A stretch of DNA of 64,000 bases. It comes from Escherichia coli. Its GTDB lineage: Bacteria; Pseudomonadota; Gammaproteobacteria; Enterobacterales; Enterobacteriaceae. Numbering within the stretch: the first letter of the stretch is position 1; each line of letters starts with the position of its first letter. The stretch lies in assembly GCF_045037415.1 (NCBI RefSeq), contig NZ_CP173438.1. The stretch is one strand, 5' to 3'. The translations under genes were made by a program, and so were the position numbers. Under the pieces are notes generated by a model. The model did not search any database. It was not told the origin of the DNA and saw only the letters and a list, made by a program, of their open reading frames with translations. This document shows positions 14,571-18,470 of this stretch, in pieces.

Positions 14571-14577
14571 TTAATTT

Positions 14578-14612
14578 GATCGCCCGAACAGGAGTGTTTG
14601 GGCGATTTTTAT
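14578..14612 (+). terminator. rho-independent terminator of yhjA
   Basis: CGCCCGAACAGGAGTGTTTGGGCG hairpin followed by ATTTTTATT. Confidence 0.7.
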
Positions 14613-14681
14613 TACGATAATAAAGTCTGTTTTTAATATTATCATATTAAATGTTTATATTATAAAAGGTCGTTTTTCTGC

Positions 14682-14701
14682 TTAGGATTTTGTTATTTAA
14701 A
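14682..14701 (+). promoter_or_regulatory. GAD box (GadE/GadX-dependent activation site) in the gadA promoter
   Basis: exact 20-mer TTAGGATTTTGTTATTTAAA about 80-100 bp upstream of the gadA ATG. Confidence 0.8.
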
Positions 14702-14780
14702 TTAAGCCTGTAATGCCTTGCTTCCATTGCGGATAAATCCTACTTTTTTATTGCCTTCAAATAAATTTAAGGAGTTCGAA

Positions 14781-16181
14781 ATGGACCAGAAGCTGTTAAC
14801 GGATTTCCGCTCAGAACTACTCGATTCACGTTTTGGTGCAAAGGCCATTTCTACTATCGCGGAGTCAAAACGATTTCCGCTGCACGAAATGCGCGATGAT
14901 GTTGCATTTCAGATTATCAATGATGAATTATATCTTGATGGCAACGCTCGTCAGAACCTGGCCACTTTCTGCCAGACCTGGGACGACGAAAACGTCCATA
15001 AATTGATGGATTTGTCGATCAATAAAAACTGGATCGACAAAGAAGAATATCCGCAATCTGCAGCAATCGACCTGCGTTGCGTAAACATGGTTGCCGATCT
15101 GTGGCATGCGCCTGCACCGAAAAATGGTCAGGCCGTTGGCACCAACACCATTGGCTCTTCCGAGGCCTGTATGCTCGGCGGGATGGCGATGAAATGGCGT
15201 TGGCGCAAGCGTATGGAAGCCGCAGGCAAACCCACGGATAAACCAAACCTGGTGTGCGGTCCGGTACAAATCTGCTGGCATAAATTCGCCCGCTACTGGG
15301 ATGTGGAGTTGCGTGAGATCCCTATGCGCCCCGGTCAGTTGTTTATGGACCCGAAACGCATGATTGAAGCCTGCGACGAAAACACCATCGGCGTGGTGCC
15401 GACTTTCGGCGTGACCTACACCGGTAACTATGAGTTCCCGCAGCCGCTGCACGATGCGCTGGATAAATTCCAGGCCGACACCGGTATCGACATCGACATG
15501 CACATCGACGCCGCCAGCGGTGGCTTCCTGGCACCGTTCGTCGCCCCGGATATCGTCTGGGACTTCCGCCTGCCGCGTGTGAAATCGATCAGTGCTTCAG
15601 GCCATAAATTCGGTCTGGCTCCGCTGGGCTGCGGCTGGGTTATCTGGCGTGATGAAGAAGCGCTGCCGCAGGAACTGGTGTTCAACGTTGACTACCTCGG
15701 CGGTCAGATTGGTACTTTCGCCATCAACTTCTCCCGCCCGGCGGGTCAGGTGATTGCACAGTACTATGAATTCCTGCGCCTCGGTCGTGAAGGCTATACC
15801 AAAGTACAGAACGCTTCCTACCAGGTTGCCGCTTATCTGGCGGATGAAATCGCCAAACTGGGGCCGTATGAGTTCATCTGTACCGGTCGCCCGGACGAAG
15901 GCATCCCGGCGGTTTGCTTCAAACTGAAAGATGGTGAAGATCCAGGATACACCCTGTACGACCTCTCTGAACGTCTGCGTCTGCGCGGCTGGCAGGTTCC
16001 GGCCTTCACTCTCGGCGGTGAAGCCACCGACATCGTGGTGATGCGCATTATGTGTCGTCGCGGCTTCGAAATGGACTTTGCTGAACTGTTGCTGGAAGAC
16101 TACAAAGCCTCCCTGAAATATCTCAGCGACCACCCGAAACTGCAGGGTATTGCCCAGCAGAACAGCTTTAAACACACCTGA
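14781..16181 (+). CDS. gadA: glutamate decarboxylase (PLP-dependent), acid resistance
   Basis: ORF 14718..16181 trimmed to [16 protein letters not shown] start (466 aa), ATG confirmed in sequence; adjacency to gadX distinguishes gadA from gadB. Confidence 0.9.
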
Positions 16182-16548
16182 TAACATCACGTTGTAAAAA
16201 CCGAATGCCCAACCTTTAAAAACAGGTGGGTATTCGGCTACTTATTAATTGCAATAATATATTACCTGTCTATTCATCGTGTTGATAAGATATATGTTAT
16301 ATGAATGTTATGGAGCATAGCGATACTGCTTAATATTACGATGATGAATTATTTGCTTACTATTAATTCCTCTGCGTTCTTAAGTCCCCTTTTTATATAA
16401 TAAATCCAGTCATCCAGCCCGAGTATCATCGCTCATTATCATCCTGTTTTCCCGCTTCGTTTAAATTTATTTATCAATCAATTTGACTTAAGAGGGCGGC
16501 GTGCTACATTAATAAACAGTAATATGTTTATGTAATATTAAGTCAACT

Positions 16549-17373
16549 ATGCAACCACTACATGGTAATTGTCTAATTGCGTACGCAAGACATAAATATA
16601 TTCTCACCATGGTTAATGGTGAATATCGCTATTTTAATGGCGGTGATCTGGTTTTTGCGGATGCAAGCCAAATTCAAGTAGATAAGTGTGTTGAGAATTT
16701 CGTATTAGTTTCAAGAGACACGCTTTCATTATTTCTCCCGATGCTCAAGGAGGAGGCATTAAAACTTCATGTACATAAAAAAGTTCCTTCATTACTCGTT
16801 CATCACTGTACCAGAGATATTCCTGTTTTTCAGGAAGTTGCGCAACTATCGCAGAATAAGAATCTTCGCTATGCAGAAATGCTACGTAAAAGGGCATTAA
16901 TCTTTGCGTTGTTATCTGTTTTTCTTGAGGATACGCAGTTTATACCGTTACTTCTGAACGTGTTGCAACCGAATATGCGAACACGAGTTTGTACGGTCAT
17001 CAATAATAATATCGCCCATGAGTGGACATTAGCCCGAATTGCTAGCGAATTGTTGATGAGTCCAAGCCTGTTAAAGAAAAAATTGCGCGAAGAAGGTACG
17101 TCATATTCACAGTTGCTTACTGAGTGTAGGATGCAGCGTGCTTTACAACTTATTGTTATATATGGGGTTTCAATTAAGCGAGTTGCAGTATCCTGTGGAT
17201 ATCACAGCGTGTCGTATTTCATTTACGTTTTTCGAAATTATTATGGGATGACGCCCACAGAGTATCAGGAGCGATCGGCGCAGGAATTACCGAACTGTGG
17301 CTCGGCGGCAAGTATGGCTGCGCAAGGGATTTTTTACGGCACTGACCGTTCTGCGGAAGGAATAAGATTATAG
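16549..17373 (+). CDS. gadX: AraC-family acid-resistance regulator
   Basis: 274 aa ORF with C-terminal AraC HTH; synteny downstream of gadA. Confidence 0.9.
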   Translation: MQPLHGNCLIAYARHKYILTMVNGEYRYFNGGDLVFADASQIQVDKCVENFVLVSRDTLSLFLPMLKEEALKLHVHKKVPSLLVHHCTRDIPVFQEVAQLSQNKNLRYAEMLRKRALIFALLSVFLEDTQFIPLLLNVLQPNMRTRVCTVINNNIAHEWTLARIASELLMSPSLLKKKLREEGTSYSQLLTECRMQRALQLIVIYGVSIKRVAVSCGYHSVSYFIYVFRNYYGMTPTEYQERSAQELPNCGSAASMAAQGIFYGTDRSAEGIRL

Positions 17374-17390
17374 AGTTTTACTCAGACATA

Positions 17391-17495
17391 AAAAAAACCC
17401 GGCATAGGGGACCGGGAAGAGGATAGTCTGCCGTCTCCAGACTAATAAACCGTTATAACACTCCCTGTTGGCACGGGAAACTTTGTGCTCTCAGT
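17391..17495 (-). ncRNA. gadY: GadY small RNA, antisense to the gadX 3-prime end
   Basis: reverse complement reads ACTGAGAGCACAAAGTTTCCCGTGCC...CCCGGTCCCCTATGCCGGGTTTTTTTT, matching remembered GadY including its terminator hairpin and T-run; about 105 nt. Confidence 0.75.
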
Positions 17496-17741
17496 AAGTT
17501 AAATATAACTTTTACTGGAAATAAGATCAGCCATTTTTTTATAAACATAAGCTATACGCTGTGTGAAAATATAATCGTGTTGCATTTACTTATTATCAAT
17601 TAACTGTTATGCAAAACTACTTTGTGGATAAAATTTGGTCCTACCAAATATGGCAGTTTTTGCACACAGAAACAGTCTGGCGTCATTTCATTAGTATACT
17701 GACATTGAAATAATCGCAGTAATGAAATATAAGGGATAGTC

Positions 17742-18470
17742 ATGGCTCATGTCTGCTCGGTGATCCTCGTTCGTCGTTCATTCGATATTCATCATGAACA
17801 GCAAAAAATATCGTTGCATAACGAGAGTATCCTGCTGCTGGATAAAAATTTGGCAGACGATTTTGCGTTTTGTTCACTGGATACGCGACGGCTGGATATC
17901 GAAGAGCTGACAGTTTGCCATTACTTACAAAATATTCGTCAGTTGCCACGCAATTTAGGATTGCATAGCAAAGACCGTTTGTTAATTAACCAGTCACCCC
18001 CCATACAGCTGGTGACGGCGATTTTTGATAGTTTCAATGACCCCCGGGTCAATTCGCCGATACTGAGCAAAATGCTCTATCTTTCCTGTTTATCAATGTT
18101 TTCTCATAAGAAAGAACTGATCCCCTTACTTTTCAATAGTATCAGTACTGTTTCAGGAAAAGTTGAACGCCTTATTAGCTTTGATATCGCTAAACGTTGG
18201 TATCTACGCGATATCGCAGAAAGAATGTACACCAGCGAGAGTCTCATCAAAAAAAAGTTGCAGGATGAAAATACCTGTTTCAGTAAAATATTACTCGCCT
18301 CCAGGATGTCGATGGCCAGACGATTACTCGAGTTACGTCAAATACCTCTGCATACTATTGCGGAAAAATGTGGCTATAGCAGTACGTCATACTTTATAAA
18401 TACATTTAGACAATATTATGGTGTAACGCCACATCAGTTTTCGCAACATTCGCCGGGTACCTTTTCCTGA
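17742..18470 (+). CDS. gadW: AraC-family acid-resistance regulator
   Basis: 242 aa ORF with AraC-type HTH C-terminus; synteny. Confidence 0.9.
   Translation: MAHVCSVILVRRSFDIHHEQQKISLHNESILLLDKNLADDFAFCSLDTRRLDIEELTVCHYLQNIRQLPRNLGLHSKDRLLINQSPPIQLVTAIFDSFNDPRVNSPILSKMLYLSCLSMFSHKKELIPLLFNSISTVSGKVERLISFDIAKRWYLRDIAERMYTSESLIKKKLQDENTCFSKILLASRMSMARRLLELRQIPLHTIAEKCGYSSTSYFINTFRQYYGVTPHQFSQHSPGTFS

What the first reader, a model, noticed from the sequence alone, without database searches (positions are those of the whole stretch)
14571..18470. Intact gadAXW regulatory circuit: GAD box, gadY antisense RNA and divergent AraC regulators
The exact GAD-box 20-mer sits in the gadA promoter, and the GadY sRNA (with its terminator) is encoded antisense to the gadX 3-prime end. 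The core acid-resistance control circuit is therefore conserved despite the chu insertion in the same island.
Basis: partly seen in the sequence, partly recalled or inferred. Interest (0 to 1): 0.3.

Follow-up and report, generated by a model that had tools for sequence, protein, structure and literature searches.

The report
Standard E. coli gadA-gadX-GadY-gadW locus

Summary
The window is E. coli, and 14000-19000 is 100% identical to several sequenced human isolates. Region 14571-18470 runs from the base after the ccp stop codon to the gadW stop codon.

**Confirmed:**
- The exact 20-bp GAD box lies at 14682-14701, correctly placed in the gadA promoter.
- GadY lies at 17385-17498 on the minus strand (Rfam 150 bits, cut-off 45), with its terminator. 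It has no difference from K-12.
- gadA, gadX and gadW are full-length open reading frames.
- A GadX/GadW-type box precedes both gadA and gadY.
- gadE is intact, and the chu island (27111-36164) sits between yhiD and dctR, the published O-island 140 position.

**Corrected:**
- gadX and gadW are both on the plus strand. They are tandem, not divergent. Only gadY and gadW are divergently transcribed.
- GadY is antisense to the gadX 3' untranslated region, not to its coding end.
- "Conserved" holds for the cis elements only. GadX (19 substitutions) and GadW (13) are the most diverged proteins of the island, and the gadA-gadX spacer is 87.7% identical to K-12.

**Verdict:** already known, low interest.

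**Side observation:** GadY is nearly invariant across Escherichia lineages in which gadX and gadW are about 25% diverged. Pairing in cis cannot explain this.

The parts
14578..14607 (+). ccp terminator-like hairpin, at the upstream edge of the gadA control region
   Evidence: 13-pair stem followed by a T run. Two of the four differences from K-12 in the ccp-gadA spacer (14592, 14594) lie within this hairpin's coordinates.
14623..14642 (+). GadX/GadW-type box upstream of gadA (AAGTCTGTTTTTAATATTAT)
   Evidence: one of only two matches in 64 kb to the ChIP-exo GadX/GadW motif AKGKCTGWTWTTWWYMYVAK (motif from PMC4918353), at up to 2 mismatches. Chance expectation is 0.23. Identical to K-12.
14682..14701 (+). 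GAD box, the binding site of the GadE-RcsB heterodimer
   Evidence: exact and unique, with 0 of 100 shuffles matching. Sequence as quoted in PMC4918353. Position as in PMC2887963.
14718..14746 (+). gadA core promoter: -35 TTGCTT (14718-14723), a 17-bp spacer holding the RcsB-box region, and -10 TACTTT (14741-14746)
   Evidence: Read. Placed using 'GAD box 16 bp upstream of the -35' and 'RcsB box just upstream of the -10' (PMC2887963). Positions 14669-14783 are identical to K-12. The start site near 14754 is inferred, not measured.
14781..16181 (+). gadA, glutamate decarboxylase A
   Evidence: 466 aa, 100% identical to K-12 GadA (25 nucleotide differences, all synonymous). Pfam PF00282. TIGR01788 693 bits against a cut-off of 380.
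16201..16237 (+). Stable hairpin just after gadA with no clear U tract (a weak terminator is inferred)
   Evidence: -22.7 kcal/mol, z = -5.6. A hairpin at the same position folds in K-12 (z = -5.5) despite several substitutions.
16483..16510 (+). Promoter-like site for gadX (TTGACT, 16-bp spacer, TG-TACATT)
   Evidence: consensus scan only. The 99 bp before the gadX ATG (16450-16548) are identical to K-12, while 16188-16449 carry all 45 spacer differences.
16549..17373 (+). gadX, AraC/XylS-family activator
   Evidence: 274 aa, no stop or frameshift, 19 substitutions against K-12. NCBIfam GadX equivalog NF007432 581.8 bits against a cut-off of 500. Pfam HTH_AraC/HTH_18.
17385..17498 (-). GadY small RNA. 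The K-12 annotation maps to 17495 -> 17390. The terminator stem is 17416-17398, followed by a U8 tail.
   Evidence: Zero differences from K-12. The 190-bp block 17374-17563 is at least 99% identical in 5337 of 5412 E. coli genomes.
17499..17534 (-). gadY promoter: -10 TATATT (17507-17502), -35 CTGATC (17530-17525), GadX/GadW-type box 17534-17515, AppY motif ATGGCTGA (17534-17527)
   Evidence: AppY motif ATGSCWGM overlapping the gadY -35 is from PMC10057817. Identical to K-12.
17564..17741 (+). gadW upstream region (the gadW promoters lie here in K-12)
   Evidence: 12 differences from K-12; 93.3% identity. The promoters were not mapped here.
17742..18470 (+). gadW, AraC/XylS-family regulator, in tandem with gadX
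   Evidence: 242 aa, intact, 13 substitutions against K-12. Pfam HTH_18/HTH_AraC. Local BLASTP alignment to GadX: 38% identity over 129 residues.

Best explanation
This is the canonical gadA-gadX-GadY-gadW end of the E. coli acid fitness island, intact, in a chuA-positive strain. Shown here by sequence: every known element is present in the K-12 arrangement. Inferred by homology: how they act. The GadE-RcsB heterodimer binds the GAD box centred about 63 bp upstream of the gadA start and activates glutamate decarboxylase transcription. GadE is encoded intact at 23467-23994. GadX and GadW bind an upstream box at gadA and another over the gadY -35. gadX and gadW are transcribed in the same direction and can form one mRNA. 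GadY is made from the opposite strand of the spacer and pairs perfectly with that mRNA just past the gadX stop codon. Pairing triggers cleavage (RNase III among others) and leaves more stable gadX message, raising GadX and the Gad system in stationary phase or acid. The chu heme-uptake island elsewhere in the island does not touch this module.
For: - Identity and context: 100% identity of 14000-19000 to annotated E. coli chromosomes with ccp-gadA-gadX-gadW-mdtF. The same order is found in K-12.
- GAD box: exact, unique and correctly positioned.
- GadY: Rfam 150 bits, terminator present, zero differences from K-12.
- GadX/GadW boxes: found only at gadA and gadY within the 64 kb.
- Proteins: all three open reading frames are intact, with family models above their cut-offs for GadA and GadX. 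GadE is 100% identical to K-12.
Against: - Nothing contradicts the identification.
- Function is not shown by sequence. No expression, binding or acid-survival data exist for this strain here.
- GadX carries 19 substitutions, including E183G, H205Y and F207V inside the helix-turn-helix region, and GadW carries 13. The region upstream of the gadX core promoter is 12% diverged from K-12. Quantitative behaviour may therefore differ from K-12.
- RcsB and RpoS are not in the window.
Confidence: 0.95

Rival explanations
1. The parts are all present, but the circuit is quantitatively rewired in this lineage. A distinct haplotype upstream of gadX, together with diverged GadX and GadW proteins, changes when and how strongly the regulators are made or act. 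'Conserved circuit' would then overstate the case. This is compatible with the main explanation rather than exclusive of it.
For: The gadA-gadX spacer is 87.7% identical to K-12, against 98% for gadA and the ccp-gadA spacer. Across 5409 genomes its identity to the window is bimodal: 1026 at 99% or more, 4329 at 80-90%, and only 54 in between. gadX and gadW have the highest dS (0.17, 0.19) and dN (0.035, 0.023) of 13 genes compared. The haplotypes are mosaic: the window's gadX allele is 99% identical to those of ST38, ST648 and E166, but its upstream spacer is only 86-89% identical to theirs.
Against: The 99 bp immediately upstream of the gadX ATG, including the predicted promoter, are identical to K-12, and so are the GadX/GadW boxes and GadY. 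dN/dS of 0.12-0.20 still indicates purifying selection. This allele is carried by about a fifth of complete E. coli genomes, so it is unlikely to be defective.
Confidence: 0.25
2. The sequence of GadY is held constant mainly by something other than its cis-antisense role. Candidates are base-pairing with unlinked mRNAs, Hfq binding, its own folding and terminator, or processing signals on the sense strand.
For: A mutation in a cis-antisense pair changes both strands together and keeps the duplex perfect, so pairing alone cannot select for an invariant sequence. Yet GadY has 0 variable sites of 106 in 10 diverse E. coli genomes, where gadX plus gadW have 9.8% (P = 1.7e-5). In seven Escherichia lineages, only 3 of the 72 GadY columns outside my search pattern vary, against 34% of gadW columns (P = 1e-9). 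Conservation stops sharply at the GadY 3' end: 17374-17389 is only 29-81% identical in the five non-K-12 loci. A trans target, sdiA, has been reported with compensatory mutations (PMC11300174).
Against: The non-coli loci were found with a pattern fixing 28 bases inside GadY, so lineages with a changed or absent GadY were not sampled. Only five such loci were found. The predicted fold of GadY is no more stable than shuffles (z = -0.44). No covariation test is possible without variation.
Confidence: 0.3
3. The matches are chance or remnants, and the locus is decayed.
For: None found. In other strains the module can be broken: IS1 interrupts gadX in isolate 30859_5#12, and gadW is annotated as frameshifted in strain ST648.
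Against: The 20-mer is exact with no matching shuffles. The Rfam E-value is 8e-32. The reading frames are full length. The locus is syntenic in 5383 of 5426 genomes.
Confidence: 0.01

Closest known systems
E. coli K-12 MG1655 gadA-gadX-gadY-gadW (b3517, b3516, b4452, b3515)
   Same: Same gene order and relative orientations. Identical GAD box, gadA core promoter, GadX/GadW boxes, GadY RNA, gadY promoter and GadA protein.
   Different: GadX has 19 amino-acid substitutions and GadW 13. The gadA-gadX spacer is 87.7% identical and the gadW upstream region 93.3% identical.
Acid fitness island carrying O-island 140 (chu), as in E. coli O157:H7 Sakai and EAEC 042 (PMC10540162)
   Same: The chu cluster is inserted between dctR (yhiF) and yhiD, with the rest of the island in K-12 order.
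   Different: Against the O157:H7 strain DEC4E sampled here, the window's gadX (93.6%), gadW (94.9%) and gadA-gadX spacer (87.6%) are a different haplotype. The 190-bp GadY block is 100% identical.
Cis-encoded antisense RNAs that direct cleavage of an operon mRNA (for example lambda OOP/cII-O, named alongside GadY in PMC3919570)
   Same: A small RNA from the opposite strand pairs perfectly with the mRNA, and the duplex is cut by RNase III among other nucleases.
   Different: For GadY the reported outcome is more gadX mRNA rather than repression, and GadY also binds Hfq. None of this was tested here.

Membership tests
GadY sRNA (Rfam RF00122) | Covariance-model score at or above the curated gathering score, over the full model | tested here: met
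   150 bits against 45, E = 8.3e-32, model positions 1-114 of 114.
GadY sRNA (Rfam RF00122) | Encoded between gadX and gadW on the opposite strand, overlapping the gadX 3' UTR | tested here: met
   17385-17498 on the minus strand, between gadX (ends 17373, plus) and gadW (starts 17742, plus). Description of the arrangement in PMC7368042.
GadY sRNA (Rfam RF00122) | Intrinsic terminator at the 3' end | tested here: met
   6-pair stem (5 G-C) at 17416-17398 followed by TTTTTTTT. The same hairpin appears in the predicted fold.
GadY sRNA (Rfam RF00122) | Expressed as 105, 90 and 59 nt species, Hfq-bound, raising gadX mRNA | not testable with these tools
   Literature only (PMC4574537, PMC10057817).
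GAD box (GadE-RcsB site) | The 20-bp sequence TTAGGATTTTGTTATTTAAA | tested here: met
   Exact at 14682-14701, unique in 64 kb, 0 of 100 shuffles matched. Sequence quoted in PMC4918353.
GAD box (GadE-RcsB site) | 16 bp upstream of the -35 hexamer and centred about 63 bp upstream of the gadA start site | tested here: met
   16 bp separate 14701 from TTGCTT at 14718. The centre at 14691.5 is about 62.5 bp from a start near 14754 (criteria from PMC2887963). The start site is inferred, not measured.
GAD box (GadE-RcsB site) | The cognate activator GadE is encoded and intact | tested here: met
   GadE is 175/175 identical to K-12, at 23470-23994 on the minus strand. rcsB is outside the window.
AraC/XylS-family regulators GadX and GadW | C-terminal AraC-type helix-turn-helix domain | tested here: met
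   GadX: PF00165 at 1.1e-21 and PF12833 at 3.9e-18. GadW: PF12833 at 1.9e-13 and PF00165 at 9.4e-11.
AraC/XylS-family regulators GadX and GadW | Orthology to K-12 GadX and GadW | tested here: met
   GadX equivalog NF007432 581.8 bits against a cut-off of 500. Full-length identity to K-12 is 93.1% for GadX and 94.6% for GadW, in conserved synteny. No NCBIfam model reached its cut-off for GadW.
   Both genes are on the plus strand, and both are on the minus strand in K-12. The divergent pair is gadY/gadW.
Glutamate decarboxylase GadA | PLP-dependent glutamate decarboxylase equivalog model above its cut-off | tested here: met
   TIGR01788 693.4 bits against 380.4. 466/466 identical to K-12 GadA.
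Acid fitness island with O-island 140 | slp-dctR / chu / yhiD-hdeBA-hdeD-gadE-mdtEF-gadW-gadX-gadA order, with chu between dctR and yhiD | tested here: met
   Annotation of the near-identical strain SK1144. Junctions at window 27110/27111 and 36164/36165. Published layout in PMC10540162.

The most novel reading that the evidence does not exclude
The GadY transcribed segment is an island of near-absolute sequence invariance inside the fastest-evolving, mosaic part of the acid fitness island. It shows 0 variable sites of 106 in ten diverse E. coli genomes. It is 98-100% identical in E. whittamii and other Escherichia lineages whose gadX and gadW are only 74-77% identical to the window. Any mutation in a cis-antisense pair preserves the duplex, so this invariance implies a second, sequence-specific constraint on GadY or on the sense mRNA. 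Candidates are trans targets, Hfq or RNase recognition, and processing signals. Meanwhile the regulators it controls, and the gadX upstream region, exist as deeply diverged, recombining haplotypes that may tune acid resistance differently between phylogroups.
Probability: 0.35. Interest if true: 0.35.

Novelty: already known. Interest (0 to 1): 0.1.

Why it matters
As stated, the finding matters little. It re-identifies a textbook locus present in 5383 of 5426 complete E. coli genomes, and it confirms that this strain has an intact glutamate-dependent acid-resistance control module.

It is useful for annotation in two ways. It fixes the gene orientation error, and it places the promoter elements, the GadY ends and the chu junctions to the base.

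The side observation is the only part that could lead anywhere. An invariant GadY flanked by fast-evolving, mosaic gadX and gadW and a two-haplotype gadX upstream region offers a natural experiment. It could show what constrains a cis-antisense RNA and whether phylogroups regulate acid resistance differently.

Tried and rejected
- **Primary papers not held.** Opdyke 2004 (PMC522195), Opdyke 2011 (PMC3030618), Tramonti 2002 (PMC135039) and Tramonti 2006 (PMC1698215) could not be read. Mapped start sites, footprints and the 42-bp GadX/GadW sites could not be transferred base by base. Positions of -10/-35 elements and start sites are therefore inferred from secondary sources and from the sequence.
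- **Short GadE motif.** The ChIP-exo motif TTARGAWWWWAAATA gave three matches where 3.1 are expected by chance, none in this region. It was uninformative.
- **GadY fold.** The fold energy is not better than shuffles (z = -0.44), so folding energy adds nothing beyond the Rfam match.
- **Covariation.** No covariation test of GadY structure was possible, because the sequences hardly vary.
- **IS1 in near-identical genomes.** I suspected IS1 disrupted gadX in all of hits H1-H5. In H1 it sits in ccp, and in H2 it is in gadX. The window has neither.
- **mdtE.** The shorter mdtE annotation in SK1144 looked like a lesion, but the full 385-aa frame is present in the window.
- **gadA coordinates.** My first gadA comparison used coordinates off by one and gave nonsense. 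It was redone correctly.
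Full report
**What the region is**

The segment 14000-19000 is 100% identical to many complete E. coli chromosomes, including SK1144, 81009 and H105. At 80% coverage or more it is present in 5383 of 5426 complete genomes. In SK1144 the annotation reads ccp, gadA, gadX, gadW on one strand and then mdtF on the other. That genome matches window 1-39000 with one mismatch, apart from an IS1397 that the window lacks. K-12 MG1655 has the same order. The finding's coordinates run exactly from the base after the ccp stop codon (14570) to the gadW stop codon (18470).

**Checking the observation**

- **GAD box.** The 20-mer TTAGGATTTTGTTATTTAAA occurs once in the 64-kb window, at 14682-14701 on the plus strand. 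No other site matched at up to three mismatches, and no dinucleotide shuffle produced a match. This is the sequence quoted as the characterised GadE site in PMC4918353.
- **Its position.** PMC2887963 places the box 16 bp upstream of the gadA -35 element and centred 63 bp upstream of the start site, with an RcsB box just upstream of the -10. In the window, 16 bp separate the box from TTGCTT (14718-14723). A 17-bp spacer then leads to TACTTT (14741-14746). A start near 14754 puts the box centre at about -62.5. Positions 14669-14783 are identical to K-12.
- **GadY.** It matches Rfam RF00122 end to end at 17385-17498 on the minus strand, with 150 bits against a gathering score of 45. The K-12 annotation maps to 17495 -> 17390. 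The terminator stem is 17416-17398, followed by eight T. The predicted fold shows the same three hairpins as the family consensus.
- **Open reading frames.** gadA (14781-16181), gadX (16549-17373) and gadW (17742-18470) are uninterrupted.

**What needs correcting**

- gadX and gadW are both on the plus strand, and both are on the minus strand in K-12. They are tandem, not divergent. The divergent promoters in this locus are those of gadY and gadW, as the title of Tramonti et al. 2008 states (cited).
- GadY ends 17 nt beyond the gadX stop codon. It is antisense to the gadX 3' untranslated region and the gadX-gadW spacer, not to coding sequence. [quoted passage not shown]
- The chu island occupies 27111-36164 (9,054 bp). 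It replaces 35 bp of the K-12 dctR-yhiD spacer, 8.6 kb from gadW. This is the published O-island 140 position (PMC10540162). There was no reason to expect it to disturb gadAXW.

**Further elements found**

The ChIP-exo GadX/GadW motif from PMC4918353 matches only twice in the 64 kb at up to two mismatches, where 0.23 matches are expected by chance. One match is at 14623-14642 upstream of gadA. The other is at 17534-17515 on the minus strand, over the gadY -35. The second overlaps the AppY motif ATGGCTGA (17534-17527), which PMC10057817 places on the gadY -35.

A promoter-like site, TTGACT-16-TACATT with a TG, lies at 16483-16510 before gadX. A stable hairpin without a clear U tract follows gadA. 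Weak termination there is my inference.

GadE, which acts at the GAD box, is intact and 100% identical to K-12. All other island proteins are 98-100% identical.

**How it most likely works**

The steps below are inferred by homology.

1. GadE-RcsB binds the GAD box and activates gadA (PMC2887963).
2. GadX and GadW act at the upstream box of gadA and at gadY.
3. gadX-gadW mRNA pairs with GadY in the spacer, is cleaved (RNase III participates), and gadX mRNA accumulates (PMC3919570, PMC7368042, PMC10057817).
4. GadY exists as forms of 105, 90 and 59 nt and binds Hfq (PMC4574537).

What is shown here is only that every sequence element is present, intact and in the correct geometry.

**How conserved the locus really is**

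Compared with K-12:

| Segment | Nucleotide identity to K-12 | Note |
|---|---|---|
| gadA | 98.2% | all differences synonymous |
| ccp-gadA spacer | 98.1% | |
| gadX | 93.9% | 19 amino-acid changes |
| gadW | 94.7% | 13 amino-acid changes |
| gadA-gadX spacer | 87.7% | |

Among 13 genes compared, gadX and gadW have the highest dS (0.17, 0.19) and dN (0.035, 0.023). Their dN/dS is 0.20 and 0.12. A 233-bp run, 17331-17563, has no difference at all from K-12.

Across the complete genomes, the 190-bp GadY block is at least 99% identical to the window in 5337 of 5412. The gadA-gadX spacer is bimodal: 1026 genomes at 99% or more and 4329 at 80-90%.

Ten diverse genomes show a mosaic. The window's gadX allele is about 99% identical to those of ST38, ST648 and E166, but its upstream spacer and its gadW are not.

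**Beyond E. coli**

An exact-pattern scan of one genome per species found GadY in five records: two labelled E. coli, E. whittamii, and two unnamed Escherichia species. In E. whittamii and Escherichia sp. E1V33, gadX is 74-76% and gadW 74-76% identical to the window, but GadY is 98% identical. Conservation ends abruptly at the GadY 3' end.

Outside the 35 positions covered by my search pattern, 3 of 72 GadY columns vary, against 34% of gadW columns (P = 1e-9). PMC12754014 independently reports E. marmotae gadW at only 75% identity to the E. coli reference, in a genome about 10% diverged overall.

A cis-antisense duplex survives any mutation, so this invariance calls for another constraint. That is an inference. 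It is also limited by the ascertainment bias of the pattern search and by the small number of lineages.

**Verdict**

The locus is real, intact and already known. The orientation claim is wrong, and 'conserved' applies to the cis elements rather than to the regulators. Interest is low. The GadY invariance and the regulator mosaic are recorded as a side lead.

Noticed in passing
window 16182-16548: The gadA-gadX spacer exists as two deeply diverged haplotype classes in E. coli. 1026 genomes are at least 99% identical to the window, 4329 are 80-90% identical, and only 54 lie in between. All 45 differences from K-12 lie in 16188-16449. The 99 bp before the gadX ATG are identical.
   Followed up: partly
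window 16549-18470: gadX and gadW are the fastest-evolving genes of the island: dS 0.17-0.19 and dN 0.023-0.035, against 0.008 or less for neighbours. They are mosaic between strains: the gadX allele is shared with ST38, ST648 and E166, but the gadW and promoter haplotypes are not.
   Followed up: partly
window 17390-17495; L011-L015: GadY is 98-100% identical in E. whittamii and three other non-K-12 Escherichia lineages with gadX at 74-90% and gadW at 74-91%; in the fifth locus (MOD1-EC7003) gadX is 5'-deleted. The conservation boundary is sharp at the GadY terminator. Caveat: the loci were found with a pattern fixed inside GadY.
   Followed up: partly
L015 (Escherichia sp. MOD1-EC7003), corresponding to window 16506-17132: This lineage lacks the end of the gadX promoter and the first 584 nt of gadX, yet keeps GadY 100% identical and gadW 93% identical.
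   Followed up: no
L017 (isolate 30859_5#12), L016 (GIMC1409), L005 (strain ST648), L010 (strain N96): Lesions in other strains at this locus: IS1 inside gadX in a genome otherwise identical to the window, IS1 inside ccp, gadW annotated as frameshifted, and mdtF truncated next to an IS66 element. The window has none of these.
   Followed up: yes
window 23278-23349 (-): Rfam ES205 sRNA hit (106.5 bits against 86), just downstream of gadE. This is the position of the sRNA annotated GadF in K-12.
   Followed up: no
window 33021-33052 (+): shuA/chuA 5' UTR RNA thermometer (RF02597, 60.1 bits against 58), immediately upstream of chuA inside the chu island.
   Followed up: no
window 39201-39285 (-): Rfam AgrB antisense RNA hit (91.6 bits against 40). 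Not examined.
   Followed up: no
window about 7920: Strain SK1144, otherwise identical, carries an IS1397 (about 1.43 kb) between yhjE and yhjD that is absent from the window.
   Followed up: yes
window 23188-23517 (+): SK1144 annotates a 109-aa hypothetical protein across the mdtE-gadE spacer, overlapping the gadE 3' end, and gives mdtE a shorter start. The full 385-aa K-12-type mdtE frame is intact in the window.
   Followed up: partly
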